DNA from: Bilabrum cf. latius
Lineage: Eukaryota
Direction: 5' to 3'
DNA length: 64,000 nucleotides
Assembly: GCA_965178125.1 (NCBI GenBank)
Contig: OZ237761.1
Coordinates: 496,001 to 560,000 of the forward strand
Shown: piece after piece, positions 11,165 through 64,000 of the stretch
Layout of the letters: each line of letters opens with the position of its first letter
Numbering within the stretch: the stretch's first letter is position 1
Translations under genes and position numbers: made by a program
The notes under the pieces: model-generated
What the model was told of the DNA's origin: nothing
Seen by the model: only the letters and a program-made list of their open reading frames with translations
Databases searched by the model: none

Positions 11165-13258
11165 ATGGCAGCAGCAGGTGGTGCGAGCAGTGGTAGCAGC
11201 GGCGGAAGTATTGATAGCACAAAAGGTCTGGGCGATCATGCTAGCTGGATGAAAGACGGCGAGAAAGAGCTTGCAAAGCTGCTTCTTGAGCTGGACCAGG
11301 GCCACCTGTTCCAGTACTGGGCGGAAGGCGCCGACGAGGACAAGAAGCACGCTTTCTTTGAGCATGTTAGATTATATTGTGGTAGTTCTTGCCTGTGTGA
11401 CGCGGACAGCTCGGAGTTTGCTTGTCCGTGCGTGATTTGTGCGTGACGCGTACCCTGTCGAACAGTCAGCAGATCCACTGTGCTACCGGCCAATCCGCAT
11501 TTGTTTGGTTCGCGGGTCTACCCATTGTACCAAAGTCCAACCATTCGATGTCGACTGACCTCGCAGATCCAGAAACTGGAGAAGAATTACCCCGGCGGCT
11601 TGAAGGCGTACGTATCCAACGCAAAAGAGCTGCTCGCCTCTAGCAAGGCCGGCGATAACCCGTTCGAGGGCATGAAGCCTAGCGTGCCAGAGGGAGAAAA
11701 GCTATCGTTCGGCAGTGACGACTTCGTCGCTGCGGAGCAGGCAGGCCTGAAGGCATTCCGCGATGCCGCCATGGTGCTGGTGGCTGGCGGGCTGGGCGAG
11801 CGCCTGGGCTACGACGGCATCAAGGTGTCTCTGCCCACCGAGAGCGTGACCGAAACCAGCTACATGGAGCTGTACTGCAAGCAGATCCTCGCTCGGCAGG
11901 AGGCGAGCAACAAGCTGGCGGGCGGGCCCCCCAAGCAAGTGCCACTCGCCATCATGACATCGGACGACACCAACGCGAGGACGCAGGCGCTCTTTTAGGC
12001 ACACCAGAACTTTGGAATGGAAGACGGGCAGGTCATCATCATGAAGCAGGAGAAGGTGGCGGCGCTCATGGACAACGAGGCGCACATCGCGCCCATGGAC
12101 GGGAACCCCTACGCCATCCAGACCAAGCCGCACGGGCACGGCGACGTGCACCAGCTCCTTGCGCAGACGGGCCTGGCCAAGAAATGGGCCGAGGAGGGCC
12201 GCACGCACGTGATCTTCTTCCAAGACACGAACGCCCTCTGCTTCCTCGTGTCCGTGGCTGCACTTGGGGTGAGCATCGACCGCAAGTTCGAGGTCAACTC
12301 GGTCGCTGTTCCCCGCAAAGCCAAGGATGCGGTGGGTGCGATCACCAAGTTGGAAAAGGAGGACGGCACCTCTCTCACCATTAACGTCGAGTATAACCAG
12401 CTGGAGCCCATGCTGAAGGCTTCAGGGTATCCCGATGGTGACGTGAACGATGACACGGGCTACAGCCCCTACCCAGGGAACATCAACCAGCTTGTGTTCT
12501 CCATCCCTGAGTACGCCAAGGTGCTCGAGCGGACGGGCGGGCTGGTCCCCGAGTTCGTCAACCCCAAGTACGCGGACGAGGAGAAGACCAAGTTCAAGAA
12601 GCCCACGAGGCTCGAGTGCATGATGCAGGACCACCCCAGGTCTGTCGGGCCCGACGCGCTGGTGGGCTTCACGCAGTTCGACGACTGGACCTACAGCCCG
12701 GTGAAGAACTCTATCGAGGAGGCCGTGAAGAAGTTCAAGGCCGGCGTGCCCGGGCGGTGTGCCTCCGAGGGCGAGTTCGAGGTGTTCGAGTCGTACGCCA
12801 GGCAGTTCCGCATGCTCGGAGCTGACGTGGCGGAGCCCAGCGGGTTTGATGTGCACGGCATGGCGGTGCAGAGGGGCCCACGAGTGGTGGTCGCCCCTCG
12901 CGTGTCTCCTGACTTCTCCACGCTCAAGGGGGTGCTCGCCAACCCCGACAAGATCAAGGTATCTGCCAAGAGCACTCTGGTGCTGGACGCCACCGAGGTG
13001 GTGGTGGAGGGTCTCGAGCTGGACGGTGTGCTGGTGGTCAAAGGCGACCCGGGAGTGAAGGTCGTTTTGAGGGACGTGAAGGTGGCCGATGGCGAGTGGA
13101 AAGAGGAGAGGCTTGAAGACCTCGAGGACAAGGGGGAGGGCGAGCCGGACTGGGTCAAGATCAGGGGGTTCAAGCTCAAGCGGGAGGGCGGGGTAGTGGT
13201 CAAAGTGGCGGGGTCCCCCGGGGAGGAGGTGGTGCTTACGGGGGAACTCACAGCGTGA
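11165..13258 (+). CDS. USP: UDP-sugar pyrophosphorylase
   Basis: Exon 1 11165-11365, intron 11366-11566 (GT...CTGAC...CAG), exon 2 to TGA 13258. Motifs [64 protein letters not shown]. In-frame TAG at 11996-11998 inside the catalytic domain. Confidence 0.93.
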
Positions 13259-17215: not shown

Positions 17216-17588
17216 AGCAGTAATGGCAAATATTCAGAAATAAAGATGCACTGCCTTGTTGCGTGAATTGACTTGACTTGCCCGTGCGGTAAATGGAGGA
17301 GCAGGGTGTCTGCGTAGGAAACCGGAACATTCAAGTTGTCAGCCATGAAGCAGTTGCTCGGAAGCCCACACGTGTCATAGACTGGAAACAAGCAGCTGCA
17401 GGAAAACAGACCAATATTGTGCGGCAGTTGGCGCTGATGCGAAAAGGTTATGCTGAAGCTTCGCATAGCGACATGAGGACTTGCAAGCGGTCACGCCGAG
17501 TCGAGGCCCCATCACATGGTCTGTAAATCAAAGCTCTTTGACCTGATCTACGAAACAAAGCACCTGCCCGAGCAAACTCAGAGTCCTA

Positions 17589-18420
17589 TCATGTCACGAG
17601 CTGCTGCAGCCCCATCACGTCCCCAGGCCCCAGCTTGCCGCCATGCTACTGAAGCACACGCACGCACCCATCGTGCCCGCCACAACAGCAGCCAGCAGAG
17701 GCGACCCCGTCGCCCCCTGCACCGTTCATCCAGTATCCAGAGCCCGCCGCTACTAGAGCAGGATCAGTTGCTTGGAGCAGGACATGCAGGCAGTCGGTTA
17801 TGACCTACCTTGAGACAGAGGTGCAGCGTGCTTTGGCCGACTTCAAGGGAAAAGCAGCAAGTTGAGGCCAGCAAGCCAGCCGGGTCGCACAGCGTAGTGC
17901 AAAGGTACCGCCGACGTTTGGTTGCAACAAGCACCGCGCGTCCAAGCCTGGATCCGTCTTTATGCCCATTGCGACGGTGATTTCGTGCAACACGGATCGC
18001 GTTGATCTACCGACCGCGTCTATGCTTGCCCCGTGGTCTAGCAATGGGCTGAGGAGCCGCATGAAGGCATCGTGAATTGACGACAGCGTGCAGCGCTGAA
18101 TTCCACGTACGACTGGGGACATCACGCATGCGCCCGCCATAAGTAGCAAACGAACAATGTCTACATCACGAACGAGGATGGCTGCATCCGAGGGGCATCG
18201 AGCTTGGTTTCCAGGTGATACTTCAGAGGACGCCCTAGCGGGAAGGGGCGCCCGCACGCATCCATTATTCCAGCGCACAGCTGCGTAGTACAAATGTGCC
18301 AGTTCATCCTATGATTGGGTATCTTGTCGCGAGAATGCCGATATACTGCACTCGCAGCCAAACACGGCAGCGAAATGTAGCTATTGCAGTGCCACTGCTT
18401 CGAATGGGCAAGTCAACATT
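17589..18420 (-). pseudogene. Degenerate tandem paralogue of the adjacent ankyrin gene
   Basis: 17604-~17716 is nearly identical to 14801-~14913 but has a 1-nt deletion (cccgccacaac vs cccgcccactac). The 5' part PFEAVALQ*LHFAAVFG...LYYAAVRWNNGCVRA resembles LPFEQVTALHFAAVLG...LCFAAVCGNTACVRA. Much shorter than the parent and eroded; 5' limit approximate. Confidence 0.65.
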
Positions 18421-19137
18421 GCATCCCTCGCTATCCCCAAGATATGCACGAAATTGCGAGAATTTTTCTGTGAACGTGTTGCACTCATCCTCCTGCTCCT
18501 CAGAATAATAGCTCTAGTCCTGCTTCACATCGCTAACAGCGAGCCTAGCTCGCATCGTATCTACTATGATACTACCCGAAGGCCACGACAGTCTCAAGCT
18601 CGCCATAATGAAAACAAGTTTATTGATTGATCTTCAATACGGTTGCGTATGCTGCACACGCGCGAGAGAAGTCTTCCCGAGCATGATGAAACCGGAACCG
18701 ATTCAAGAAAAGAGGGAATTGGTCTTCACCGCACCTGGCATCGCAAACTGCTGTTGCTGGTAGTGCTACACGTGTAGCAGCTTCACTAACCACGGGCGAT
18801 CGGTGCTCCATGGCAAGAGTAGGCAGTGCAAAGGCAGGCAAAAGCAATGCTAAGGAAGGCGGTGCAGAATCACCGGCACACCCTCACCACCAGATGTGGG
18901 AGCTATATTCTCTGGTGAGCATGAGGCATTAATTAATATGCCATACGTGATTCGGTGGTCATGTTGCGGCGCGGTGATAGGGAGAGTTGCTGTGTCTTGC
19001 CGCATTTGAGAGACAACTCGAAGCCTAGGAGCCTCATCCATTGCCGAGTCGAGCTAGACTGCGAGCGAGGAAAGTTGTACATCCGCATGCATATCGCGTC
19101 ACAAGTGCCGTGTATTTCTGCCGCCGGTTCTCTTTCC

Positions 19138-23687: not shown

Positions 23688-24407
23688 TTATTTTCTCTGC
23701 TTGACCACTGCAAGCCTCGCAAGGTCCTCTGCCACCAGCCTCGCCCCGTGGTCCTGCAGCACTCCCACGCATTCCTGGTGCCCATTGCCGATAGAAGCCA
23801 GCAGCGGCGACCCCATCTCCCCATTGCCTACATTTCCCTTGATTGCTAGCCCGCCCGCAAGTTTGCCCAGCCTCAGCCTCCTGGCCAGCTCCATGGGCCT
23901 GCCCTCGGCAGCTGCCTTGAACACCATGCTTGCGTCCCTCTTGGCCTCCACTGCCCTCCTCCAAGCCGCCACCCGCCTCGCCCTAGCGATTCTCGGCCAA
24001 GGACTATACTTTTGAAAATCTTGGAATAAGGGACCGAGGTGTTTTTTGGCCTCGTCCCAGCACCAGTACAGGATGCGTTGCATGCACAGCTCCGCATCGT
24101 CCTCGCCTTCTCGCAGAGCTTGTCGCAGCCGTACCCTGCTGTCAGAGTTAGCCAGCTCCTGGAGGCTCATTCTAGGAATGATGGGATCTTTTTCGTTGAT
24201 TTTCATGCGCCACGCAGGGTTACCGTCGCGATCCTTATCGGCCGGGTCCACACCGGCCCGAAGAAGCAGTAGAGCGACGGCTGGGTTCTGATCGCGGCCT
24301 GTATGAAATGCCGAATGTAGAGGGCTCCAACGCCACTGCGCTCGGTAGGGCCAATTGAATACACCTTTATTCCATGCCTGCGTCTCCGCTGTGTTCAAGA
24401 CGTCCAC
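23688..24407 (-). CDS. Short ankyrin-family paralogue (5' end unresolved)
   Basis: SPLHSAF..LLLRAGVDPADKDRDGNPAW. C-terminal ~90 aa are clearly homologous to the 14786..17215 protein (RRAVEAxRDAxMVFxAAxxGRPMELxxRLRLGKLAGGL). Ends in TAA at 23688-23690. Confidence 0.65.
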   Translation of the reverse strand: MDVLNTAETQAWNKGVFNWPYRAQWRWSPLHSAFHTGRDQNPAVALLLLRAGVDPADKDRDGNPAWRMKINEKDPIIPRMSLQELANSDSRVRLRQALREGEDDAELCMQRILYWCWDEAKKHLGPLFQDFQKYSPWPRIARARRVAAWRRAVEAKRDASMVFKAAAEGRPMELARRLRLGKLAGGLAIKGNVGNGEMGSPLLASIGNGHQECVGVLQDHGARLVAEDLARLAVVKQRK

Positions 24408-25174
24408 AACTACTGACTCACCAAGGTCTTGTGGCCGACATCAACCCCGCAGGCAAGCACACAACTTAGTGCGCACACCTGACCACCCTCGCAGCACCTC
24501 GAAATCGCAACCCATCGCCCCTGCAACATTTGATGCCACAAGACCATATGCGTACCGTTAAAGCTGCCTCGGGCCAGAGCAGACGAAACGCGATCACAAC
24601 CTCACCCAGCCAGCTGGTTCATCGAGCTTTTTTCTGAACGATGGGTCACGCACATCAACCATAAAGTCCTTATTTGTTGTGTCTGCGAAACATAAAGGGG
24701 AATGACAGGCTAATTCGCACGGGCTAGAGGACCGCGACAATCGCTTGTTTGCATGCATTCGCTTGCATACCTGGCCATTCCCTCGAATTAATCCCATGGC
24801 ACTTGTGTTCTCCATTACCTAAGGCAGGAATGTCCATAACCCTTGATCAAGCGTTGCTGTTCCAGACTGCTAGGATGCGGATCAGATGCGGATCCGACAG
24901 GCAGCATCATGCAAACATGATATTCGATTTAAGCAAAGTGCAAAGTTTGTTTGTATCTCTAGGCATTGCCAAGTCTACCATTCCTGATCAAGGTGGCTTA
25001 CGAGGACTTCAAGTGTTCTTCTCAGGCTTGCTTAGTTGCTTGGTGGGTGCTTCTGCTTCAAGTTGCAGCTGTAACTTTGTCTCGGTTGAAGAGTGACGGG
25101 CTGAGCTTGCCCCATCCCTTCTCTCCCAGAATTCCTCTCATTTCTGAGCCAATGCAAGAGCTAGCCGATACCAC

Positions 25175-26632: not shown

Positions 26633-26831
26633 GGACGCTACCTTAGCAATGGCTTTAGATAATACAACGAGTTTTTCATCAAGTTGAGGCTTCGACATTC
26701 TCGTAGGAGCAAACACTTGTAAAAAATGTGACCGTTCGCAGGCTTTGTGGCGTGTGCTTTAAATTTGCGCAACGGACTGAAACTAGTTTGCAGTCGTATC
26801 CCTCATGGCTGCCCGCGGTGGTGCATCTACT

Positions 26832-27719
26832 ATGGCATCAATGGGAGAAGAAAACATATATAATTGGATCAAGCGGGAGGCAGAGGCTCCTCCGAAGCCA
26901 AAGATGTATCGAAGCAAGTTTAGGGGCAAGGCGACAGACGTGACCTACTCCACCCTCAAACCTGCCAAAACAAAGTTAGCTGCCGCCACCATGGGAAGAA
27001 CAGTGAAGGGAACAGTTAACCCGAAAAAGTTTCTCAAGAGAGGCGAGAAAATGCCACGGGCTGCAGACCCTCGAGTCCTACGTGAGTTGCAGACTTTTGT
27101 TTGCTTTGCATGGGAAGCTTCTACCACCGCCCAAAGCACTAGACTTGTACATTCAGATTTATATGAAGCATATTTATTCTTTTCTGTCGCAGCCAAGCGA
27201 TTTAAGAGAAAGGATCCTGTTCGGAAGCCGCCGGTCCCTTCCAAGGACGACAGACCGGTATTGGCTGCCAAGGGCAGCAAGGACTACGTGGTGTCCAACG
27301 CGCTGGAAAACATCCTAGCCGTGCCACCTTAGCGACCAGCAGAGCCGGACTACCGCCACAAGGAGGACTACGGGAAGGTGCCCGAGTACCTGGAGGTGAT
27401 CAAGCAGGAGGTGGAGGAGGAGAAGGAGCTGTTCGACACGATGATCGCGCAGGCCGAGCTCCAGGAAAGGGAGGATCACGGCGAGGCAGTGGCCAGGCGA
27501 ATGCCGGAGGAAGAAAGGGAGGAGCTGCTGGAGGCCCTGAAGGCCAAGTGGGACGACGTCAACGAGGAGTACCAGAAGATCTCGCACCAGACCATCTCGA
27601 CCAGCAACGCGACGATCGGACAGGTGCGCAAGAAGGAGGAGTGCGAGAGGCAGCTGGACCAGCTGGAGAAGGATATCGAGAGACTCAGCAAAAAGGGCCC
27701 CATCTTCGTGGTCGACTGA
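26832..27719 (+). CDS. ENKUR: Enkurin-domain ciliary protein
   Basis: EENIYNWI..PKPKMYRSKF..RKPPVP..DYVVSNALENILAVPP*..DYRHKEDYGKVPEYL..EEREELLEALKAKWDDVNEEYQKI..RKKEECERQLDQLEKDIERLS. Probable intron 27082-27192; TAG at 27330; TGA end. Confidence 0.88.
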
Positions 27720-27996
27720 GCGTCTGTGAGATGAAGTTGGGCCAGGCGGGAGGCCTGGAGGATCTGAGGGTGCCCTGTGCTAGGTTGTCTGGTCTACCGA
27801 GGGGCTTGCTACTCGCTCGATGCATTCGTTGAAACATTAGTTCATATCGAATCTCTTGCGTAGTTTAGCTCAATGGCTCGGGTTGCCCAGCTGGGCACCT
27901 GCCATGTTTGCGTGGCATGATCGATCGGATCATCAATTTCGTGAGGCATGCCCGTCGACTTGAATTCAGAAACACCGCTTGTTTGGAGCGAAACTG

Positions 27997-30900
27997 ATGT
28001 AGAAAAGCTTGTTCTCATTTTTTAACAAGCCATCAAAGCCTAGCGACGGTGGCAGCGCACCAAGAGCAACACCTTAGAAGGCTGTGAAAGTAAGCTGATG
28101 GTGCTAAATTCAAACTGAGATTCAGCCGCTGACATTGCTGCTCGAGCTTGCGCACGCTGAATCTGTCTCTGTATTCCCTCACAGAGTGGTATCAATGAAA
28201 ATCAAGCGAAGAAAGCCCCAGGAGGTACCCCGTCGGCAGCCAGCAAAGCTGCGCCGAAACTCGAATCTGGGAAGGCAGGCGAGTTAGGAGCGTCTGTTGT
28301 CGGCCGTAGGGTTCGAATCTGGTGGCCCAAGATGAAGCAATTTTATGCAGCTCTGATCAAAAAGTTTGATGGGGCTCGAGACGAGCACTACATCCGGTAC
28401 GATGACGGCGAGGAGGAGTGGATCACACTTGCGCAAGAGAGAGTGAGCAGGGTTTTGGGAATCGCTGCAGTGCTGTTATGTTCTTGTCCACGCAGAAACC
28501 TCCGAGATATTCCCGCCTTTTATTCCGCAGTTCGAGCTCGAGGACACGACGGCTGCTACAACGCCCGCAAAAGGGGCGGCATCTCCAGGCCCATCCTCCA
28601 TGTCTATCCCAGGAGGATCCGCGGGAGGATCTGCGGAGCAGAAGCGAAAATCTAGCGGCAAAGCGACATCATCGGCTCGATCACCATCATCAGGCGCCGC
28701 TTAGGCCCCCATGGAAACCGGAGAGGGCGAGGGCGAGGGCGAGGGCGAGGACGCTGCCCTCCAGGGCATCACCTTCGACGAGGAGACGGACGAGGACGAA
28801 GATGAAGATGAAAAGGTCGGGGCCGCTGCGAGGCGATCCCGACTGAAGAAGAAGAGCGCTTCGAAGGCGAAGGGAAGCATCGGCAAGAAGAGGTCGCGCG
28901 CAGCCGTGCAGGACAGCGATGACGACGAGTACAGCGCCGGGGAGGACGAGGAGGAAGAGGACGACGACGACGAGGAATTCGAAGCCAACGTGGGAGCAGC
29001 ATCCGAGGACGATGGGGATGCAGGGCCTGGAAGCGAAGATGAAGATGAATACGACGACATGGTGGTGGCTCCCCCGAAGAAGAAGAAGGCGAGGAAAACG
29101 CCCGCCAAGGCCCGGTCGCCCCGAACACCAGCAAGCTCGGCATCGTCCGCTGTCGCTACGGCATCGGCGCGCAAGTCGTCTGCGTATGGGGACAGGGACT
29201 ATGCGGTGGACCCCGTGGATTCTCTGGCAGGCGCTGTCGGTTGGGAGAGGCGATCGGGGGGCGGGGTGCTCCACGGAGCTTCCGGGGCCATGGCGAGTGC
29301 AGGCGGCCCGTCTGCCTCTGCCTCCTCGTCCTCCTTTGTCGCTTCTGGCGGCAGCAGCGGGTCCTGGTCGACACCCGTGGCGGTCCCCGACACGCCGACG
29401 AAGCGCCCCCTGCCCGTCGGTTTCACCGAGAAGGAGATGGACAAGATGGTGCTGGGGCTGGGCCAGCACCACCACAACCGGTACAGCTTCCTGTGGCAGC
29501 CCAACAGGAAGGACGGCCACCGTCGGGCCCCTTCCCACCCCGACTACGACCCCAACACCCTGTGCGTCCCACCTGATTTCCTCAAGAGCCAGACCCCCGC
29601 CATGCGCCAGTGGTGGGAGATCAAGAGCAGGTACATGGACACCGTGCTCTGCTTCAAGGTGGGCAAGTTCTACGAGTGCTTCCACACGGACGCAGACGTC
29701 CTCGTCAAAGAGTGCGACTGCATCTACATGAAGGGGCTCAAGGCGCACGCGGGCTTCCCCGAGATCGCCTACGGGCGTATGTCGGAGGCTCTTGTGGCCC
29801 GTGGCTACAAGGTGGCTCGCGTGGAGCAGACGGAGACGCCTGCCCAGCTGGCCCAGCGGAAGAAGGAGACGCCAAGGGGCCAGAAGAAGCCGCAGGTAGT
29901 GCGCAGGGAGCTGTGCGGCCTGAAGTCAAAGGGGACGAGGGTCACTGGCCCGATGGACGTGGTGGAAGACGGGCCGGGGGGCGGGTCTTCGCCAGGTGCG
30001 ACGGCTGCGCTGGCTCGCGCTCGGGAAGCGGCCGGGGCCGCGCTTCCCTCTGATGCTGCCGTGCTTCTCGGCATCTTCGAGACCCCTCTGCAGCAAGCGG
30101 GAGAGGCCGGGGCGGCGACCCAGGGAACAAGCGCCCGGAGCCGTGGCCCGAACGACCCGGACGTGCGGATCGGCGCGTGCATGGTAGACGCCGCTTCCGG
30201 CCAGGTGTGGCTCTCGGAGTTCCTGGACAACTCGCAGCGCACGCGGTTGCGCACGCTAGCGGCGAGGGCGCAGGTGGTTGAGCTGCTCACCTGCGATGGC
30301 AACCTGACCGAACCTTCGGCGAGGTTCCTCCGTTTCGACTGCGCGACGGCCGTCCGCACGCAGCTCAAGCCCGGCAACCAGTTCTGGGGAGGGGCCAAGG
30401 CGGCCAAAGAGCTTGAAACCGCACCTTACTTCGCGGAGGCAGCGGGGGCTGCTGCGGGAGGAGCAGACGGCGATTCTGCCGCTTCCGGTTCTTGGCCCGC
30501 AGTGCTGCGATCCTGCGCTGATCTGGCCAAGGCGGCCGGTTACACGCCCAGCCAGAGCGCCGGTTCTGCCGACGCCGTGTGTGCCGATGTGGCACCGGGG
30601 GCGGGCGCGTTCGCTGCGTTCGCCGGCACGCTGGGTTACCTTCGCAGGTGCCTGATTGACCACTCCGTGCTGTCCATGGGGCGAGTCAGTGCCTACATGC
30701 ACGAGGCAGAGGTCAGCGCGGGCGGCGCAGCGTCCGGCGCAGGCGCGTCGCCCTCGGCTGCCGCTTCTTCTTCCTCCTCCGAGGCTGCTAGCGGAGATGC
30801 CGACGCTGTGTCGGCCGCAGCTACCGCGGCGTCCTTGCGACTAGACCCGCCCGGCCCCCGCATGGTGATGGACGGCAGCACGCTGGTGAACCTGGAGGTG

Positions 30901-32729
30901 CTCGCCAACTCGTTCGATGGGTCGATCAAAGGCTCGTTGCTGGAGTGCGTCGACAGCTGCGTCACGTCGGCCGGTCGCAGGAGGCTGCGCAAGTGGATGT
31001 GCCAGCCGCTGCGCGAGGCCATCGATATCAATCGCAGGCTTGATGCCGTGGATGACCTGATGTCGCCGGAGCTGGCAGAGGCCGTGGGCCAGGCCAGGAA
31101 CACTCTCAGGCAGGTGCCCGACCTCGAGAGGCTGCTGCACAGGATCCACGCATCGGGCTCCAAGCACCTGAGCCAGCACCACCCAGATGCCAGGGCCATC
31201 CTCTACGAGGCCCAGACGTACTCCAAGCGCAGGATCAAGGACCTCACCGCTGCCATCCGGGGCTTCAAGGCGCTCAACGAGGTCAGGCAATTGTTCCGTG
31301 CGGGCGCCGGCGATGCTGCATAGGCTCTTCTCCCCGAGGTTAAGAGTACGCTGCTGCGGGACGTGCTTGGCGAGGCCATGCCGGATGTGTCCGAGCAGCT
31401 TGACACGTTCGAGCGCTCTTTCAACGCCAAGCAGGCCGAGTCGACGGGCCGCATCGAGCCCAGGAAGGGCTTCGACCCCGAGTACGACGCTGCCGAGGCA
31501 TCCAAGGCCGAGGTGCTGCGCAAGCTGTCCGAGCACCTGCAGGAGTGCAAGGACCTGCTGCGGTGCTCGACCCTCAAGTTCTGGGGGAACAACAAGGACA
31601 GGTACCAGGTCGAGGTACCCGAGAGCAAGTGCTCCGCCGTGCCGGACGACTGGTTGGTCAAGAGCCAGAGGAAGGGCACGTGCAGGCGCTACTGGACTCC
31701 GGAGGGGCAGGATCTGCTGGCCGAGCTGGTCAAGGCGGAGGAGGCTTCCCAGCTGGCCGTGAACGACTCGATGCGGAGGGTGTTTGCTCGCTTCGACGCG
31801 CACAGGGCCAAGTGGACGGCCACCGCCGAGGCAGCCGCGGTGCTCGACGCGCTGTGTTCCCTGGCCATCTGGAGCTCGCAGGGCGACGGGGCCGGCGCCA
31901 TGTGCAGGCCCGTGTTTGTAGACCGAGTGGAGGCTGCGGCCGCTTCTGCTGGGGCAGGCGCCTCTCCTAAGAAGGCGAGCACCACGGCATTCCTGCAGCT
32001 CAGGTCGGCGAGACACCCCGCGGTGACGCGTGCCATGAACCAGCGCGGCGACGCGTCTTCGTACGTGCCCAACGACGTGACCGTGGGGCGGTACACCCCG
32101 ACGGGCGGCGCCGGGTCGCTCTCGTCGTCACCATCGAGCGCGGTCGGCGGCGAGATCGGCCCCGGTGGTCCCGAGTGTGTGCTCATCACAGGCGCCAACA
32201 TGGGCGGCAAGAGCACCTACCTAAGGCAGACCTGCGCCTGCGTGATCCTGGCGCAGCTGGGCGCGTATGTCCCCGCCGAGTCGTGCAAGCTCTCGCCCGT
32301 GGACCGCGTGTTCACGCGCGTGGGCGCTAGCGACCGCATCCTCGCGGGACAGTCCACCTTCTTCGTCGAGCTGGCAGAGACCTCCACCATACTCTCGCAG
32401 GCCACGACGGACTCGCTGGTGATTCTGGACGAGCTGGGGAGGGGCACGAGCACTTTCGACGGCAACGCGATCGCTGGGGCTGTGACGGAGCACCTCACGC
32501 GCAAGGTGGGCGCCAGGACGCTCTTCGCGACGCACTACCACACGCTGACCGAGCAGTTTGCGGCAGATCCAAGGGTGCAGCTGGGGCACATGGCGGTGCT
32601 GGTAGGTGAAGATGACGAGGACGAGGACGAGGACGAAGAAGATGAGAGCGGAGCTTCGAGGAAGGCAGGAGGCAGCGTGCCAATGGAGGACGGCGAGGGC
32701 CAGGGCGGCGCATCCGGCGCGGCGTCCTC

Positions 32730-32789
<60 letters not shown>

Positions 32790-33198
32790 TGCTGCCAGCG
32801 GACTCATGGGGCGGCGGGCCCCCGCTGTGACCTTCCTTTATCGATTTGCACCCGGCGCGTGCCCGAAGAGCCACGGCCTCAACGTCGCCAGGCTTGCTCG
32901 CCTCCCCGAGCAGGTGCTCGAGCGGGCCGCAGCGCGAGCAGAAACCTTCGAGCTGGCGCTAGAAGGGGCCATCCGCGCAGCGAAGGGGGAGGCGGCCGCA
33001 GCGGCTGCGCGGGCGGTTGGAACAGCAGAGGAGACGAGGGGTGGTCAAAGCAGTGCCATGGAGCTGGCCAGGAGTGCGCTCGCAGCAGTGGCGAAGAGTG
33101 CGAATGGCGAGCTGCCGGCAGCGGGCGAGGCGGAGGTCGCGATGGCGAAGGTGCCGGACGAAGCCCTGATGAAGATCCTGAGTGCTATGACGGAATGA
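27997..33198 (+). CDS. MSH6: DNA mismatch repair protein MSH6 (PIP box, Tudor domain, MutS domains I-V)
   Basis: Exons 27997-28089, 28185-28442 and 28531-33198. PIP box M*KSLFSFF; Tudor VGRRVRIWWP..HYIRYDDGEEEWI; DYDPNTL, TPAMRQWWEIKS, FKVGKFYE, GYKVARVEQTETP, TGANMGGKST, DELGRGTST, FATHYH, CPKSHGLNVARLA. TAGs at 28000, 28075, 28702 and 31321. Confidence 0.96.
32725..32790 (+). repeat. (TCCTCG)n microsatellite encoding 22 Ser inside the MSH6 ATPase domain
   Basis: Read directly: tcctcc followed by ~10 TCCTCG units, in frame in MSH6. Confidence 0.9.
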
Positions 33199-38822: not shown

Positions 38823-41800
38823 ATGAGCATGATACGAATTCCCACAAGCGGTCGCCTTGAAGTGTCTGGCAAGGTCTTGGCTGACAGCGAGCCTAATCCC
38901 GACGACGTAGACAGCTCTTATGACGGTGCTTCAACCGATACAGCCTACGATATAATTGTAGATCATTCCATTAAAGCAACTGATCCAGATGGACGCGCAG
39001 ACTTAGTGAGGAATTCGGGAATACTTCTGTTGATCGTGCTTTGTGCCGTTGTGGCGCTGACAACGGCACTCTTTGAGCAATTGAGCACACTTACCAATCA
39101 TATACCGCAGTTTGTTAGACTCTCCGTCAGTGAATCGGCATCAAAAAGATCATGGAGAGTCTACCGGTCGTCAAATGCCATCCGGGCCTTGCATGATGCG
39201 GTGAGATTTCGTGACAGACGCTGCGACCAAACGAACCCCCTCCGTCGTCGCTACATCGAAACCGGCAGCGGGTAAGCCTTACGCTGTATCGCAGCTTTGT
39301 GATGGTCATTCCGATGCCATGGCTGCATTGGAGCCGCCTCCACTTGTCCGGCGGAAGGCAGACATTCCGAAAAGCTCAACCTCACCCGGTTCGACCGTGG
39401 CACCGGCCAAATTTGGGGCATTTGCACGAGATTGCGATGGATACTTCGAAGATCTGTCGCATTTTGACTTTGTTGCGACGTCGGGTCGATTTCTTGACTT
39501 CATTGAAGGGCCGTTTGCGTGCCGACCACTGCAGCCAAGTGTTGGGCACTGTCCTCCTGATTTACAAGTTCGATACGGTGGGTATCATCAACATGTTGCC
39601 GGTTATCGCCTGCAAGTAAAATCGAGCTCGCTTGGATGCGGCTGGTACGTCTGGCGGGGCAAAGTTGACAGCGAGAATCTCCTCGCTTTCGCGAAGCAGG
39701 ACCCGTTGGTGTTTGCGCACTGTTCCACTGACCTATCTCAAAGGCTGCCCAATGCTGAAGGTGTGCGACGACAGGCGGACATAGCAGCCGCGGGATCGTC
39801 GATTGCAGAGGTAGTGAATCGGCTGCTCGCTTGCATGGTGCCTCCGTACCCCGCGGCTATGCTGGCTTTCCTCCGCCTTGGAGAGGCCATCGAAGCGCAC
39901 TAGCTCAGCGAATAGGCTGCCATTGAGACCGATCCAGCGGGTAGTTTAACGTCATCGCGCGATGGCCTGGAATGGGTGGCAGTGCCTGACCAGGGCTTCC
40001 CTAAGCCTACCATTGGGCATAGTGCTGGGCTTGCACCATCAGCACTCGGTGGTGGGCCAGCACCGAGATCGTGCTGGCACAACCGAGAAGTTATCGAACT
40101 GGCTCGCAGTTTGCTGGACGGTAGGCCTGACAGTACCGATAGTTCTTCTTCTTGGGCCAGGCAGTATGCGGCCGATATGGGCGGCTTGCCCTCTGCTGCA
40201 GTGCTTTCCATGGCAATGGCCGATCGTAAGGACAACAGCGCCGAATCAGCGGGGAATACGTGGCGAAGCAGGCACGATTCCAATGCTGATGAAAATAGTT
40301 ACCTTGGCGACGGCCTCTTATCTCCTATGCAAGCCTCCCTCGACGAGGACCGGCGACCGGCACCGAAGCAGCTGCATGCCGCCATGCGCGCAACTTCTGA
40401 CGACATGCTTCCGGGGTCTCCGAAGCAGCCACATCCGCACATTGCTGGCAGTTCAGCCCACAGCAAGGAGAGGGCGAATTCCGGAGATGCCAAGGTCGTT
40501 GAGTCTGACTCAGGGTACTCGTCAGCGAGGAGCCAGGTGGTCGACGGGTCCATGGGCTTCATCAGCCAGGAGAGCCGCCGCAGCTTTGGGTAGCGGGGAG
40601 CACAGGCTCCACGGGCTACAAACAGTGGCACGGGATGGGGTACGAACGGGGAGCATGCAGATGGTAAGGATGGGAAAGGAGCAGTCGAGGACCAGCCCAT
40701 TGCAACTAGCAGAGACAAAGCGGTCTGCGCCCCTGCCTCAAGTGTGACCTCTTCGAAATCCAGGAAGTCGACCAACTCATCAAACGCATCCGGACGGACT
40801 GTCGGAACAGCCCACCTGTCTGCAGCTAGCCGCGGCACACGTCGAGGCACGCGTGGGGACGACGCAGAGGGGACACCGAATGCTGGCACAGTTGGAGAGT
40901 AGCAGGCCTCTCGCCAGCTAGAAGCCAGGGTGATGCCGAATGCTGGCACAGTTGGAGAGTAGCAGGCATCTCGCCAGCTTGAAGCCAGGGTGATGCCGGA
41001 ACCACCCCGCCCCGCACAGATAGAAGCGCTGTAGCAAGAGCTCAGCGCACCCCAAAGCCCTTGGAAAAATCATGGTCTGTCTGCTGCCAATAAGCACAAT
41101 GAGGCCCCGTCCACAGTTGTGGCCTCAACAGCGACCGATACTCACGCTGGGGATGCAGGAGGGCGCGGGCCCAGTCGGTCTTCGTCAGCGCATTCGAACC
41201 ATGTAGTCGCATCACAGCGAGGGCATCCAGTCCAGAGTGCCCCTCCCATCATTGAGACGGAGGGGGATAGCAGTGCATCTCCTGGCACAACGAAGAGTCC
41301 CACTGCTGCGCCAGAGAGCAGCAGCTACAACAGCACTGGCCCGCTGATGCGACTTGGATCTCAGCAGTCCATCAGCGCTATTTTTGGCGCAATAGGGGCT
41401 TCACGAACATCAAGGCAAGCCTCGGTACGATCAGGAATGAACCAGACAGCTAAGATGCAAGCCAAGCAGGATGCCCCTCCACAGACCGCTCCAGTGCAGA
41501 GCTCTATGCGCAGAGCAGCTTCCAATGCATCTACCGTTGGAGTCCGGCGTGGCAGCATATCAGATTTGGTTGCTCACGATGTTCCAGAATCAGACTACTC
41601 GTCCACAGTTGCCTCGGAGAGCGAAATTGCTTCCCCACAGCTGGGTGCAGCAGCCCACGAGAACCCACCGCCCAGGCGGCGATCGTCGTTGAAGCTGCCT
41701 CGGCTGAAGTCTATGCAGGACTGGGACGTTGGGCTGGAACCACTGTCAGAGCAGACAGCCGGAGAGATAGGGGAGGAAGAAGGTCCGTCCAGCGTGAGAT

Positions 41801-60125: not shown

Positions 60126-63100
60126 TCACGAATAGTCCAATTCAATCGCCCCGCGCAGGCTGGCCCCGCCGTGACCCCACCCAGGGCACTGGATGCTTAT
60201 CCGGTTTGGCACACCCACACGAGCGGGCAGCTGCTGGAAGGTCGCGGCCTTGCCATTCACAACTACTGACCTGACCTGGTCCGGTTCACCGTCACGGAGC
60301 AAGACCACGATACTCGGGCACTAACCCGCTGGGACAGGTGCCCAGTCGATGTTGACGCACGCAGCACCAGCACTTGCCTCGCTTCGCAAACCGCTCTGTG
60401 CGCGCCCGTCACCAGTGCAGCTACCCAACTTCCTGGACACGTTCAGCAGCGGGCTTGAGAAAGCCCACTGGTCCTAATCATCAAGCCTAGCCGAGATCTA
60501 GATCTACCCCGCTTCAAAATGAGCACCGACAATTGCGGGAAGCCGCAGCTGCGCGGCCGCGTGCGACCACATGTTGTGCAGCTGCCAGTCGGCAACACCA
60601 CCCTGCCCCGCTGCTGGCACGCCCGGGCGAATGTAGTTATCAGAGCCCGTCCACGTTCCTGCCAGAATATCAGGGTACACCAGTGCGTGGTTCGCGAACG
60701 AGTTTTTCTTCACTTCGTCCCAAGCCGTGTCCGACAGACCCATCTTCCCGAGGGCCTCGACGTACGGCATGATGCCGCAGGGCCATGTGTTCGCGTAGTG
60801 CCCTTGGCCACCCCACGCAACGTAAGACTGATTCGTGAATTGCGCACCGATTGGGGAAGGGTCCCGCAGCCCAGATTGAATGGACCCCAGCACGTTCTCA
60901 ACCAGTGTTGCAGCACCAGCGGGTGCCTGCTATGGCACACCGGCCAGCAGGGCCCACGCGTTGGGTTCAAGCCACACGGCAGAGTCGTTGCTGCGGACCC
61001 CCGGTGGGCACGAGCCTGCGCTGCAACCTATCCATCCACTGCCCGGGCTGATCCAAGCTCGTCGGTAGTACAGCGGAGTTCCGTCAGCAGCCCGGTTCAC
61101 GGCCGCACGATTGAGCGAGATCACCAGCTCGCTGGCAAGACGATCCATGGCAGCCGCCCTGGCGCAGAGTGCCAGAGACGGGTCTGCATCGCATGTAGTC
61201 GACGTAGTCACCTCGACCGCGAGCCGAAATGCGTCTGCGGCGGCAGGCAGCATGTAAGCAGCCATGGCAGAATTCATCACTGTCTCCCCCTCAGTCTTGA
61301 GCTCGTCGCACTGGTCTGTGGTCAGGCCAATCGAGTGGCAAATTCCGTCGTTATGGTCTGCGAGAACAAGATGGAGACGTGAAAAGTACAAACGACACCG
61401 AATGATAGACTGCTAAAAGCGCCGCGCAAGCAAGTATCATTCGTGGCAGGCAGTAGAGCGGCATCATCACAGCCTTGCTTACCCATATGCAACATCTTGA
61501 GAAGGCCATGCTACCCTTTCCCAATGATAGTGTCGAGGCGCTGAAATAGCCACCAGAGAGCCTCGTGCAGCGGTACCCTGGCGGATGGCCCAGGGGCGCC
61601 AGCTGGTCCGGGCTCACCATGCTGGCTCACGTTGCGAGACAAGTTCTTGAACAGCACACCAACATCTCTCGTAGAAAGCACGTACCGCGCAGCAGCACCG
61701 AGCGTCCAGATCTCTAGGTCACTGGGATGCATCTACCGGCCGAGCGGGCTCGTGTAGTTCTCGCTGTACACCTGCCCGAACGTCTGCACGCCCCAGGGCA
61801 TGGTCCAGGCCGCATCGGCTTGCTGGATGGAAAACCGCACCATTTCAATCGTCGAGCCGCGACCGAGCGCCGACTCACTCACACCATAGCCAGAAGACTG
61901 TGCCCGATGCTCGTTCTGGCCAGCCTCATGGTGGAAGTTGTACACGAGCGGGGCGACGTGGCCGAGCGGGTCACGGATGGCACCTTGGAAGCCTGCGTGA
62001 TACTGGTACACCCCGGCCTGGTTAATGAGGAAGCCCTGCCAGAACGAGTCGTACGACATCGCGCCTCGGGTGTAACCTGCCTGCCATACCTGCTCTCGCT
62101 CTGCCCACGCGGCTGCGTCAGGGTCTCGCTTCGCGTCGGGCTGAAACCGGATACCGGTCGAAGCGAACTTGCGCGAGCTGGCCGTGAGCCACAGCGAAGC
62201 CCCACCCGGGGATGAGTGCGCTTGGAGCAGCGGTGCGATGAGGCCCACGGCTCCGCTAGGTGACTCTGGGACGCCTGGTGGCACGTACCCGCTAGCTAAA
62301 TGCAGCTGAGCTGCAAGGCCAGAGCCGATCATGCCATCTCCTGCATCGCCGTCCAAGGCATACGATGCAAGCGGTGCCTGGATGGCGAGCGATGTTGATG
62401 GTCCCGCAGCTGCACCGTCTGTGCCATCAAGAGGCTCTACAACCCTGGGCTGGTCAGGGCGCGACGAGTCCGGAAACAGAAACGTTCCGTTGGCAGACAC
62501 GGAGCAACCCCCGAAATCTGAAGTGGCCTGTGCTGTGGTACTAGCGCCATGCTTCGCGCCGGGTGCGAGCAGGACCAGAAACTGCGGCCTGGGGTGTTTG
62601 TCGTGCAGCGAGGGGGTTGGAAATTGTGACGGCCACGCATCCAAGCTTGATCCTGCCGCTGCTTCGGTCTGTGAGTGCGACAACGGCACAGCAGACGGCC
62701 CCGCCGCTACTGAATGGTCGTCGCTCATCGATGGCGCGGTTATCTGGTCGAAGAGCAGCAGCGCTAACGAGTCGGCAGGGCACGGGGCAGAGCTGCCTAC
62801 CAAGGCAGGGGTTACCGCGTATCCTCCAGGCAACCCGCCCTCAGTAGCCTGCAGCAGACCTCCGGGTCCTCGCCAAAACGTGCTTCTCACGCACGAGGCC
62901 GAGACGTTGTGGCCCCACGTTCGGCTGGCCTCGGTGTTCCAGCCCGTGGGAAGCAGCTCCTGAGCCAGCGTGGACCAGACCTCCGTATAAGCAGGAGGAT
63001 TGCTTGAAGTAGCCATCAATGCGGCGGAGACTGACACATTCACCTGGGACACGACGAAAGGAACGTCTCCAAATGGAGCTTGCACGACGTGCGAAATTGA

Positions 63101-63574
63101 AGCCGTACCTGCGCCTGCCGCTGTTGTCTTGCTTGCCTGTCCGACCCCAAACCGAATATTTAAATCTTTGCATTGACCGCCATCTGCAGTGTGGACTGGA
63201 CAACGGGATGAGGCTGCGATTCGGTCGCCTGCAGACACCCACCCCGCACCGCCCCGGAACTGCTTGAGAGACGCATCGAAGCCGTTCATGAGCTTGGGTC
63301 CACCCTCATCCTAGCGCAATGTCACAAGACCATCGGCTGCGCACAAGGCGACTAACCTATCGTTGCCAAACTGGTGTAACAAGGACCCGCTCTACGACTC
63401 GTTCGAAGCCCCGAGATAGGATACCGCAGGAAGAATGCCATCAGGTGTCGACCCCCAGCTGCCCCACATGTTACTCCCAGGACTATTATGTGGGCTATCT
63501 GGTTGCCCAAGAGATGGAACCAGCTGGGTCAATGCCAGTACGCATGCCGATATAATGAACCTGCAATAGTGCAA
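60126..63574 (-). CDS. Secreted GH94-like (alpha/alpha)6-barrel glycoside hydrolase/phosphorylase
   Basis: Signal peptide MHYCRFIISACVLALTQLVPSLG. Intron 61482-61358 gives G*HGLLKMLHMDHNDGI, spaced like the GH94 GxHGLxxxxxxDWND motif; also RDPLGH, SDLEIW, GETVMNS, WLEPNAWALLAG. Nine TAGs (63392, 63311, 61733, 61511, 60930, 60504, 60498, 60474, 60321); TGA at 60126. Confidence 0.72.
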
Positions 63575-64000
63575 CTGCCACCATGCAAACGATACGAAAT
63601 ATCATGCTACTCGACTTGCGGATTTAGAACAATGAGGAAAAGCTAGGATAACTATAATGGTTTGACTGACATGCTGTGGGCTCTTAAAGAAGCGAAATTT
63701 GCTCACAAAGATCCGTAAAATCGTGATCTTTTTGAAACGTGTCGTTTTCTCAAAATACGAATTTGGTCGTTCATCGTGCAGCTAGCGTGGTCCACACTGT
63801 TAGATTGTCGCTTCTATTGCGCCAGGCAGTCCATATTGTGCGACAAACACATCATTATACCTAATAGGATTGCTTAGACTGCCAGAAAGTGGTTTGAGAT
63901 TGCCGATTAGCGCTTGGGTCTGCACGTGGTATCGCGAAGGGAGCTATACTAGTGCTCACGTGGAGCCTTTTGTGATTCATAGCAGTCCAGTGTCTTTTAA

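What the first reader, a model, noticed from the sequence alone, without database searches (positions are those of the whole stretch)
27997..28029. TAG occupies the invariant Gln of the MSH6 PCNA-binding PIP box
Seen: ATG TAG AAA AGC TTG TTC TCA TTT TTT AAC AAG = M*KSLFSFFNK, spliced in frame by two GT-AG introns to the Tudor and MutS domains. Known: eukaryotic MSH6 starts with a QxxLxxFF PIP box. TAG is codon 2 and sits exactly at Q. This is the sharpest evidence for Gln rather than Leu, Glu or Tyr; as a stop it would abolish the N-terminus.
Basis: partly seen in the sequence, partly recalled or inferred. Interest (0 to 1): 0.88.

Follow-up and report, generated by a model that had tools for sequence, protein, structure and literature searches.

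The report
TAG read as glutamine in MSH6
In this GC-rich protist genome the stop codon TAG is used as an ordinary codon, most likely for glutamine, and one clear example is codon 2 of the mismatch-repair gene MSH6, where TAG stands at the glutamine of the motif that binds the replication clamp PCNA.

Summary
ATG TAG AAA AGC TTG TTC TCA TTT TTT lies at 27997-28023. An RNA-like contig of run X5 begins at 27987, keeps the TAG and splices 28089>28185 and 28442>28531 (GT..AG), as predicted. Exon 3 carries MutS domains I-V.

Of 85 eukaryotic MSH6 homologues, 59 have an N-terminal psi-xx-aromatic-aromatic motif. Position 1 is Q in 48 of them and never E, L or Y. It is highly conserved, not invariant.

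TAG is a sense codon across the window. There are 80 in-frame TAGs in 16,873 codons, and the ORFs end in TGA or TAA.

Independent support for Gln comes from an unnamed gene at 60129-63601 (- strand). The closest homologue has Q at 4 of 9 TAG positions, against 22 of 46 for the window's own CAG/CAA and 0 for its E, K and L positions. Gln is the likelihood optimum.

The MSH6 tree places the organism among stramenopiles. My searches found no nuclear UAG reassignment reported for that group.

Verdict: a table-15-like code (UAG=Gln) in an apparently new lineage. The PIP-box site is good but not unique evidence. No tRNA, eRF1 or peptide data were available.

The parts
27997..27999 (+). ATG start codon of MSH6
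   Evidence: Only in-frame ATG after the TGA at 27961-27963. It lies inside the X5 contig that begins at 27987.
28000..28002 (+). TAG, codon 2, at position 1 (Gln) of the PIP box
   Evidence: The TAG is unchanged in the spliced X5 contig. The homologous position is Q in 48 of 59 motif-bearing MSH6 N-termini.
28000..28023 (+). PIP box codons: TAG AAA AGC TTG TTC TCA TTT TTT = x-K-S-L-F-S-F-F
   Evidence: Read directly. Table 15 reads it as QKSLFSFF. Identical to Thalassiosira P0027 QKSLFSFF.
27997..28089 (+). Exon 1 (31 codons, with a second in-frame TAG at 28075-28077)
28090..28184 (+). Intron 1, 95 nt, GT..AG
   Evidence: Joint 28089>28185 in 1 contig of X5. It is absent from the DNA-like run X1.
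28185..28442 (+). Exon 2, Tudor-like domain
   Evidence: Pfam PF21743 is weak: E 0.0046 and 17.2 bits, below the cut-off of 27.2. It aligns with the VGxRVxxWWP...YDDGEEE block of P0003, P0004, P0027, P0036, P0052 and P0080.
28443..28530 (+). Intron 2, 88 nt, GT..AG
   Evidence: Joint 28442>28531 in 1 contig of X5.
28531..33198 (+). Exon 3: disordered acidic/Ser-rich linker and MutS domains I-V. In-frame TAGs at 28702-28704 and 31321-31323. TGA stop at 33196-33198.
   Evidence: Pfam MutS_I 6.4e-27, MutS_III 1.4e-34, MutS_IV 1.5e-14 and MutS_V 2.4e-68; MutS_II is weak. TAG positions come and the stop.
61325..63601 (-). N-terminal ORF of an unnamed conserved gene. Its 4 in-frame TAGs (63392-63394, 63311-63313, 61733-61735, 61511-61513) were used as an independent test of the meaning of TAG.
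   Evidence: Homologues P0121 (53% identity) and P0122 (42%). The aligned residues are Q; Q and Q; S; V.
60129..61436 (-). C-terminal ORF of the same gene. In-frame TAGs within the homologue-aligned part: 60930-60932, 60504-60506, 60498-60500, 60474-60476 and 60321-60323.
   Evidence: Homologues P0123 to P0127. The closest-homologue residues are I, E, R, Q and Q. Fragment P0124 (91% identity) ends exactly at the TAG at 60930-60932.

Best explanation
The window is nuclear DNA of a GC-rich protist, stramenopile-affiliated by its MSH6. It uses a table-15-like genetic code: UAG is a sense codon that most likely encodes glutamine, UGA is the usual stop and UAA a rarer stop. In the MSH6 gene the mRNA keeps UAG as codon 2. 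Translated as Gln, the protein starts MQKSLFSFFNK. That is a canonical N-terminal PIP box (Q-xx-L-xx-F-F), followed by a Tudor-like domain and the MutS core. Shown here: the sequence, the splicing, the retention of TAG in an RNA-like contig, the sense use of TAG throughout the window, and the alignment of TAG with Gln in homologues. Inferred from what is known of such codes and of MSH6: a tRNA-Gln with anticodon CUA reads UAG, the release factor eRF1 no longer recognises UAG, and the motif tethers MutS-alpha to PCNA with the Gln side chain in the Q-pocket.
For: (1) TAG is sense. Reading TAG through raises ORFs of at least 300 aa from 28 (13,827 aa, longest 1016) to 48 (31,358 aa, longest 2855, 2426, 1817, 1759, 1583, 1534). 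Reading TAA through instead gives 35 (16,294 aa, longest 1016). The 16 ORF pieces taken as genes hold 16,873 codons with 80 TAG, 499 CAG and 153 CAA. Of 16 gene-like ORFs that end inside the window, 14 end in TGA and 2 in TAA.
(2) RNA. The spliced X5 contig covers 27987-28712 with 0 other letters, so the TAGs at 28000, 28075 and 28702 are not edited.
(3) PIP site. Q stands at position 1 in 48 of 59 motif-bearing N-termini among 85 eukaryotic homologues. The rest are K3, D2, S2 and F, T, P, M once each. None is E, L or Y.
(4) Independent gene at 60129-63601 (- strand). The closest-homologue residue at 9 TAG positions is Q in 4. The window's own CAG/CAA positions align with Q in 22 of 46, and E (29), K (18) and L (93) positions in 0. 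The background share of Q is 3.0%.
(5) Likelihood with empirical substitution tables puts Gln first at every alignment-quality cut. The next candidate (S or K) is 5.2 to 9.8 lnL units lower and Glu 12.7 to 14.4 lower. In the control, 60 of 61 sense codons recover their own amino acid.
(6) Relatives' predicted fragments stop where the window has TAG (P0124, 91% identity) or CAG (P0121 and P0125). Matching contig lengths suggest that the fragments of each relative lie on one contig.
(7) Where a homologue anchors the C-terminus, the stop is TGA. This holds for enkurin against FAP106 and for the gene at 60129 against P0127.
Against: No tRNA gene lies in the window (Rfam found 0 matches). No whole genome is held. 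So neither a tRNA(CUA) nor eRF1 could be examined, and there are no peptide data.
One near-identical paralogue pair of ankyrin-gene C-termini differs by GAG against TAG (CAG GAG CAT against CAG TAG CAT), and a third paralogue has GAC there. That fits Glu as well as an E-to-Q change, and the TAG-bearing copy may be a decayed gene.
Five of the 9 TAG positions in the test gene align with S, V, I, E and R.
TAG sites in USP (H/R), the kinase (E/P/I), enkurin (A/K/K) and MSH6 codon 931 of exon 3 (gapped loop) are uninformative.
The likelihood counts several homologues per site, so the lnL differences are inflated.
Among PCNA partners in general, position 1 of the PIP box tolerates charged residues, Gly and Pro (PMC6881253).
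The tool only guesses that X5 is RNA, and contig ends do not define a transcription start.
TAGs lie 3, 8 and 12-14 codons before the ends of three ORFs, so a residual stop function of TAG in some contexts is not excluded.
Confidence: 0.87

Rival explanations
1. TAG is a sense codon for another amino acid, with Glu the most plausible, then Lys or Ser, and Leu or Tyr as in other lineages. The MSH6 N-terminus would then carry a non-canonical PIP box.
For: A paralogue pair differs by GAG against TAG within otherwise identical DNA, with Asp in a third copy. One TAG aligns with E in P0123, and the kinase TAG aligns with E in MLK1. PIP-box position 1 tolerates charged residues in the curated set of PCNA partners (PMC6881253). 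UAG encodes Glu, Leu or Ser in other protists (PMC11687900 passages).
Against: Gln is the likelihood optimum. Glu is 12.7-14.4 lnL units lower, K is 6.8-11.9 lower and S is 5.2-11.2 lower. Leu and Tyr are not among the eight best candidates at any cut. In the test gene none of the 29 E, 18 K or 93 L positions aligns with Q, while 4 of 9 TAG positions do. No MSH6 homologue has E, L or Y at PIP position 1.
Confidence: 0.06
2. TAG is ambiguous. It is read as Gln inside genes but still terminates translation in some contexts, for example close to the 3' end of the mRNA, as in the context-dependent codes of some ciliates and trypanosomatids.
For: Three ORFs have TAG very near their ends: the 815-aa ankyrin protein at codon 813, the BPI-like protein at codon 545 of 552, and the kinase at codons 681 and 683 of 694. 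My ORF definition cannot reveal a TAG stop.
Against: About 1.2 TAGs are expected by chance in the last 15 codons of 17 genes, at the window's density of 80 per 16,873 codons (my arithmetic). Four were seen in three genes, so the excess is weak. Such sites are also what ancestral TAG stops would leave behind after a reassignment. C-termini that homologues anchor end in TGA.
Confidence: 0.05
3. TAG is an ordinary stop. The ATG-TAG is then a two-codon upstream ORF in the 5' leader, MSH6 starts further downstream, and the many in-frame TAGs reflect pseudogenes, read-through or RNA editing.
For: By the standard code the frame reads M*. ATG 27997 lies only 10 nt from the start of the X5 contig.
Against: The next in-frame ATG lies inside the Tudor-like domain (translation). 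Exons 1 and 3 hold three further in-frame TAGs, two of them (28075 and 28702) upstream of MutS domain I. There are 80 in-frame TAGs in 16,873 codons of long ORFs that end in TGA or TAA. The codons after the TAG spell a perfect MSH6 PIP box. The spliced contig keeps TAG, so there is no editing.
Confidence: 0.02

Closest known systems
NCBI translation table 15 (Blepharisma nuclear code): UAG-only reassignment to Gln, as reported for Iotanema spirale, Protocruzia tuzeti and some phyllopharyngean ciliates (PMC11687900, passages read)
   Same: TAG is sense and best fits Gln. TAA and TGA end the ORFs. Table 15 reads exon 1 as MQKSLFSFFNK....
   Different: The host lineage differs. The MSH6 tree puts this organism with stramenopiles, and my searches found no report of a nuclear UAG reassignment for them. 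The genome is GC-rich (0.55-0.70 per 2 kb) and TGA is the dominant stop. The tRNA and eRF1 were not seen.
N-terminal PIP box of MSH6 (human QSTLYSFF, quoted in PMC6881253; the abstract of PMC1919485 says a few N-terminal residues of the yeast protein bind PCNA)
   Same: The pattern is Q-xx-psi-xx-F-F at the extreme N-terminus, followed by a disordered linker and the MutS core. L, F and F are at positions 4, 7 and 8. A Met directly precedes position 1, as in P0038, P0058 and probably P0001.
   Different: Position 1 is written as TAG in the DNA. Binding to PCNA was not tested here.
UAA+UAG to Gln codes (table 6 type): many ciliates, Ulvophyceae, Hexamita, Streblomastix and Amoeboaphelidium (listed in PMC11687900)
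   Same: A stop codon one transition away from CAG is captured for Gln.
   Different: Here TAA does not behave as sense. There are no in-frame TAAs in ORFs of up to 2855 codons, reading TAA through hardly lengthens ORFs, and 2 gene-like ORFs end in TAA.
UAG-only reassignments to other residues: uncultured rhizarian exLh (Leu) and Scotinosphaera (Ser) (PMC11687900)
   Same: UAG is uncoupled from UAA.
   Different: Leu is not among the eight best candidates at any cut. Ser is 5.2-11.2 lnL units below Gln.

Membership tests
MSH6 (eukaryotic MutS-alpha subunit) | MutS domains I, (II), III, IV and V in order | tested here: met
   Pfam MutS_I 6.4e-27, III 1.4e-34, IV 1.5e-14 and V 2.4e-68. MutS_II is below its cut-off, at 18.8 against 25 bits.
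MSH6 (eukaryotic MutS-alpha subunit) | Mismatch-binding Phe-X-Glu in domain I, and a Walker A ATPase motif. Both motif definitions are recalled, not taken from a call. | tested here: met
   The translation shows VGKFYECFH and TGANMGGKST, also DELGRGTS.
MSH6 (eukaryotic MutS-alpha subunit) | Best homologues are MSH6 orthologues | tested here: met
   1627 proteins with E <= 0.001. The top named hits are MSH6 of oomycetes, diatoms and other stramenopiles (38-45% identity).
MSH6 (eukaryotic MutS-alpha subunit) | N-terminal chromatin-reader domain (PWWP in animals, Tudor in plants and algae; recalled) | tested here: inconclusive
   PF21743 gives E 0.0046 and 17.2 bits, below the 27.2 cut-off. Exon 2 nonetheless aligns with homologues that carry precomputed PF21743 (P0003, P0080).
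Canonical PIP box (Q-xx-[LIMV]-xx-[FY]-[FY], PMC6881253) | Aliphatic residue at position 4 and aromatic residues at positions 7 and 8 | tested here: met
   L5, F8 and F9 of the protein.
Canonical PIP box (Q-xx-[LIMV]-xx-[FY]-[FY], PMC6881253) | Gln at position 1 | tested here: inconclusive
   The codon is TAG. Gln is inferred from other TAG sites, not observed in the protein.
Canonical PIP box (Q-xx-[LIMV]-xx-[FY]-[FY], PMC6881253) | Binds PCNA | not testable with these tools
   No PCNA of this organism is in the window, and the peptide is under 30 residues, so no complex prediction was run.
UAG-to-Gln nuclear code (table 15 type) | In-frame UAG in expressed, conserved genes | tested here: met
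   80 TAGs in 16,873 codons. TAG is kept in the spliced MSH6 contig. TAGs lie inside conserved blocks.
UAG-to-Gln nuclear code (table 15 type) | UAG positions align preferentially with Gln in homologues | tested here: met
   4 of 9 positions against a 3.0% background. Gln is the likelihood optimum. Q is at the MSH6 PIP site in 48 of 59. The sample is small and comes mostly from one gene.
UAG-to-Gln nuclear code (table 15 type) | UAA and UGA remain stops | tested here: met
   14 TGA and 2 TAA at 16 ORF ends. Reading TAA through hardly lengthens ORFs. TAA rests on few cases.
UAG-to-Gln nuclear code (table 15 type) | Cognate tRNA-Gln(CUA) and an eRF1 that spares UAG | not testable with these tools
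   No tRNA in the window. No genome is held.

The most novel reading that the evidence does not exclude
This may be the first nuclear stop-codon reassignment in the stramenopiles. It is a UAG-only change to Gln in a GC-rich lineage whose main stop is UGA. It appears to be shared by relatives at about 50-90% protein identity, because their predicted proteins break exactly at the window's TAG or CAG positions. It appears absent from the more distant relatives, whose MSH6 proteins (43-47% identity) were predicted without breaks. The TAGs a few codons before three ORF ends would then be relics of ancestral TAG stops, which would point to a fairly recent change.
Probability: 0.4. Interest if true: 0.75.

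Novelty: new member of a known kind. Interest (0 to 1): 0.62.

Why it matters
Nuclear codes in which UAG and UAA have different meanings are rare. The cases listed in PMC11687900 are a rhizarian, a fornicate, one green alga and some ciliates. A further, independent case in a GC-rich stramenopile-like lineage would add a data point for how stop codons are captured, because models based on AT pressure fit it poorly.

It also matters in practice. Any standard-code annotation of this genome and its relatives cuts proteins into pieces. In the public protein collections the relatives' gene homologous to 60129-63601 already appears as fragments of 74 to 532 residues.

The MSH6 PIP box itself is ordinary biology. 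Its value here is as a clean, easily tested site: one N-terminal peptide would show the residue.

Tried and rejected
- A classifier based on neighbouring amino acids (which residue's +/-3 context best fits the 80 TAG sites) gave R, L, Q. It failed its control, with only 13 of 60 sense codons ranked first, so I discarded it.
- TAG sites in USP, the kinase and enkurin against solved structures fall in variable columns: H/R, E/P/I and A/K/K.
- MSH6 exon 3 codon 931 lies in a gapped loop, with 53 of 60 homologues gapped.
- Ankyrin-repeat TAG sites, read by eye against a recalled repeat consensus, are variable positions. One stands at the usually-Asn position. I gave them no weight.
- The scan of metagenome contigs with MSH6 returned only one distant locus (L001, 26% identity), because the patterns chosen were organism-specific or low-complexity.
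- The scan of genome contigs with the gene at 60129 found no relative.
- The 1534-aa ORF (14 TAGs) had no homologue among 8000 scored candidates of 843-2685 residues.
- No RNA holder is on record for the stretch. X5 and X6 are only guessed to be RNA. X6 and X10 gave no cover over exons 1-2.
- No paper was found for the EukProt record GECG01, so the closest named relative stays unidentified.
- No complex prediction with PCNA and no structure prediction were attempted.
- Supplementary files of papers were not consulted. Supplements of code-survey papers could list this lineage.
Full report
**1. The observation.** The window reads ATG TAG AAA AGC TTG TTC TCA TTT TTT AAC AAG from 27997. By the standard code this is M*KSLFSFFNK, with a second in-frame TAG at 28075. 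An in-frame TGA at 27961-27963 closes the frame upstream, and 27997 is the only in-frame ATG after it. GTAAGC follows codon 31 at 28090, and the intron ends in CAG at 28184. Exon 2 (28185-28442) ends before GTGAGC, and the second intron ends in CAG at 28530. Exon 3 runs from 28531 to a TGA at 33196-33198. All junctions are in phase 0.

**2. The gene.**
- Exon 3 carries MutS domains I, III, IV and V with strong Pfam scores, and domain II weakly. The translation also shows the motifs VGKFYECFH, TGANMGGKST and DELGRGTS.
- Exon 2 matches the PTM/DIR17-like Tudor family only below its cut-off: E 0.0046, and 17.2 bits against 27.2. It nevertheless aligns over the block VGxRVxxWWP...YDDGEEE with the N-termini of six homologues, P0003, P0004, P0027, P0036, P0052 and P0080. 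P0003 and P0080 carry that Pfam family in the precomputed annotation.
- The same alignment runs smoothly across the exon 2/3 junction (..AQER|FELE against ..ATERFRII and ..GAEKYQVL).

**3. RNA evidence.**
- Ten runs hold the stretch or a part of it (five hold half of its words or more), and none is on record as RNA.
- On 27400-29400, run X1 gives a contig that is continuous over 27400-28712, introns included, so it behaves as DNA.
- Run X5 gives one 582-nt contig (depth 17) lying on 27987-28089, 28185-28442 and 28531-28712 with 0 other letters and 0 gaps. Its joints are 28089>28185 (skips 95, GT..AG) and 28442>28531 (skips 88, GT..AG).
- X5 has no cover at 27802-27935, between this gene and the enkurin gene that ends at 27719. 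So X5 behaves as RNA here, although the tool only guesses so.
- The contig contains the ATG and the TAGs at 28000, 28075 and 28702 unchanged. That rules out editing of these sites in that molecule.
- Contig ends do not define a transcription start. All that can be said is that sequence from 27987 onward is present in a spliced molecule.

**4. Is TAG a sense codon in this genome?**
- Under the three standard stops there are 28 ORFs of at least 300 aa (13,827 aa, longest 1016).
- With TAG read through there are 48 (31,358 aa), and the longest are 2855, 2426, 1817, 1759, 1583 and 1534 aa.
- With TAA read through instead there are 35 (16,294 aa, longest still 1016).
- Reading TGA through also raises the total (77 ORFs, 36,958 aa), because TGA is the commonest stop triplet in this GC-rich DNA. 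The longest ORF then stays near 1080 aa.
- The 16 ORF pieces I took as genes hold 16,873 codons with 80 TAG, 499 CAG and 153 CAA.
- Of 16 gene-like ORFs that end inside the window, 14 end in TGA and 2 in TAA. By construction none could end in TAG.
- Where a homologue fixes the C-terminus, the stop is TGA. Enkurin ends level with Chlamydomonas FAP106, and the gene at 60129 ends level with P0127.
- The long ORFs contain no TAA. If TAA were a Gln codon used in the CAA:CAG ratio, about 25 would be expected (my arithmetic).

**5. The PIP-box site.**
- A search with the MutS part of exon 3 returned 1627 proteins with E <= 0.001, of which the best 120 were listed.
- I examined all 85 of the listed hits P0001-P0085, the MSH6/MSH7-like eukaryotic part of the list. 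Of these, 59 have a [LIMV]xx[FY][FYLM] motif in their first 70 residues and 26 do not. Many of those 26 look like truncated gene models.
- Position 1 is Q in 48 of the 59. The other 11 have K (3), D (2), S (2), and F, T, P and M once each.
- Of these 11, three are spurious motif matches (P0018, P0046, P0069). Four have a Q one or two residues upstream (P0049, P0053, P0056, P0073). Four are real exceptions (K, T, D, D). None is E, L or Y.
- The best hit, EukProt record GECG01012788 (45% identity), reads ..RKMQANLFSFFGKK. A Thalassiosira protein reads QKSLFSFF, identical to the window at all seven readable positions.
- So the site is strongly conserved within MSH6 but not invariant.
- For PCNA partners in general I read passages of PMC6881253. 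The canonical motif is Q-xx-psi-xx-theta-theta and the Gln sits in a Q-pocket. In that paper's curated set of PCNA partners, however, 34% of sequences lack the Q, and position 1 is called the most promiscuous position, tolerating charged residues.
- One site of this kind is good evidence but cannot settle the code alone.

**6. Independent evidence for Gln.** Most other TAGs in recognisable domains fall in variable columns:
- USP codon 184 against H and R;
- kinase codon 204 against E, P and I;
- enkurin codon 184 against A, K and K;
- MSH6 exon 3 codon 931, in a gapped loop.

The useful case is an unnamed gene on the minus strand with no Pfam family. Its N-terminal ORF is 61325-63601 and its C-terminal ORF is 60129-61436.
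- Homologues are P0121 (53% identity) and P0122 (42%). One search added P0123 (50%), P0124 (91%, 115 aa), P0125 (66%, 114 aa) and P0127 (81%, 74 aa).
- I took one residue per site from the closest homologue that covers it. The nine TAG sites then give Q, Q, S, V, I, E, R, Q, Q, which is 4 of 9.
- In the same alignments the window's own CAG/CAA codons align with Q at 22 of 46 sites. Its E, K and L positions do so at 0 of 29, 18 and 93. Q makes up 3.0% of all aligned homologue residues.
- Two of the Q matches sit in well conserved blocks. LRxDEGGPKL aligns with IRQDEGGPKL in both homologues. VPAGxCPSIVVL aligns with VPAGQCPSIVVL in the 81%-identical fragment.
- I ran a likelihood test with substitution tables estimated from these same alignments and from ten MSH6 homologues. 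It used 44 TAG-residue pairs at 11 sites. Gln comes first at every alignment-quality cut. The next candidate (S or K) is 5.2 to 9.8 lnL units lower and Glu 12.7 to 14.4 lower. Leu and Tyr are not among the best eight.
- Several homologues are counted per site, so these differences are inflated.
- The control works: 60 of 61 sense codons have their own amino acid as the commonest aligned residue. The exception is CAA.

**7. Relatives seem to share the code.**
- The relatives' proteins were predicted with the standard code, and they come in pieces.
- P0124 ends at ..LLAGVP, exactly where the window has the TAG at 60930-60932.
- P0121 ends at ..QAFG and P0125 at ..SHAAA, each exactly before a window CAG codon.
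- Matching longest-contig lengths (6942 for P0121 and P0125; 4922 for P0124 and P0127; 6414 for P0122 and P0123) suggest that each pair lies on one contig. The breaks would then be internal to the gene.
- I could not see the DNA, so the identity of the terminating codons is inferred.
- The more distant MSH6 relatives (43-47% identity) were predicted as unbroken proteins of 1334-1645 residues. That is easier to reconcile with a standard code in those organisms.

**8. Evidence against, and loose ends.**
- Two paralogous ankyrin-gene C-termini (ORFs 14789-17233 and 17592-18524, minus strand) share an almost identical stretch. In it one has CAG GAG CAT and the other CAG TAG CAT, and a third paralogue (23691-24440) has GAC.
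- This is what TAG = Glu would predict. An E-to-Q change, or decay of the weakly ankyrin-like copy, explains it as well. It does not offset the likelihood gap.
- TAGs lie 3, 8 and 12-14 codons before the TGA of three ORFs. This may be chance, relics of ancestral TAG stops, or a sign that TAG still terminates in some contexts.
- No tRNA or other Rfam family is in the window, and no genome is held. The decoding machinery is therefore entirely inferred.

**9. Who is it, and is it new?**
- I built a FastTree of the MutS core with 33 sequences and 925 columns, rooted on two bacterial MutS proteins. Support values were not examined.
- The tree puts the window in a clade of unnamed sequences together with the EukProt record. 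That clade sits next to ochrophytes (diatoms, Triparma, Tribonema, Chrysoparadoxa, Chrysophaeum), with oomycetes as the next branch. This is a single-gene placement.
- Four full-text searches found no report of a nuclear UAG reassignment in stramenopiles. From these I saw only listings and the starts of abstracts.
- Passages of PMC11687900 list the known UAG-only cases: a rhizarian (Leu), Iotanema (Gln), Scotinosphaera (Ser), Protocruzia (Gln) and phyllopharyngean ciliates.
- The library lacks most subscription journals and I saw no supplements. The holder runs date from 2025, so a description may be in preparation or in print elsewhere.

**10. Verdict.**
The MSH6 mRNA keeps UAG as codon 2 at the Gln position of a canonical N-terminal PIP box.
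- The window as a whole shows a table-15-like code, which reads exon 1 as MQKSLFSFFNK.
- The PIP site is a clean, testable example, but it is neither invariant nor the strongest evidence. The nine sites in the gene at 60129-63601 carry more weight.
- The kind of code is known. The lineage appears to be new for it.

Noticed in passing
window 14797 (- strand, codon 813 of 815), 7504 (+, codon 545 of 552), 23524 and 23530 (+, codons 681 and 683 of 694): In-frame TAGs lie 3, 8 and 12-14 codons before the TGA of the 815-aa ankyrin protein, the BPI-like protein and the kinase. They may be relics of ancestral TAG stops that are now read through, a sign of context-dependent termination, or chance. About 1.2 such TAGs are expected and 4 were seen.
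   Followed up: partly
window 14789-17233, 17592-18524 and 23691-24440, all - strand: Three paralogous ankyrin-type genes share a conserved C-terminal tail (..GHDGCVRVLQ[E/TAG/D]HGGKLGPGDV..). The first two are nearly identical in DNA over about 100 nt and differ by GAG against TAG. The middle copy has only weak ankyrin matches and may be decaying.
   Followed up: partly
window 60129-63601, - strand: A conserved two-ORF gene, probably with one intron near 61325-61436, has no Pfam family. It has 108 representatives with E <= 0.001 in the 1.84-billion-protein library, many of them as the C-terminal part of proteins of 800-1200 aa. Its function was not determined.
   Followed up: partly
window 39205-47772 (+), 47884-52488 (-), 52780-60060 (+): Three very long ORFs of 2855, 1534 and 2426 aa carry 23, 14 and 13 in-frame TAGs. 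The first two have no Pfam family and the third has ankyrin repeats at its start. The 1534-aa one had no homologue among the candidates scored. The first contains two tandem repeats (60 nt x 2 at 40876-40998, with a TAG in each copy, and 84 nt x 3 at 42967-43217).
   Followed up: partly
window 11447-13258, + strand: A UDP-sugar pyrophosphorylase gene is very similar to the solved structure named MbUSP (9uml, E 1.9e-162). It has one in-frame TAG at 11996.
   Followed up: no
window 28713-28760 and 28941-28976: A GAGGGC microsatellite (GEGEGEGE) and a GAG/GAC-rich acidic stretch lie inside MSH6 exon 3. The Logan contigs of all four laid runs break or cross-match there, which gives spurious joints and depth spikes.
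   Followed up: no
window 26781-27719, + strand: An enkurin (flagellar microtubule inner protein) gene lies directly upstream of MSH6, which suggests a flagellate stage. In X5 and X6 its contigs end at 27746 and 27847, consistent with a short 3' UTR.
   Followed up: no
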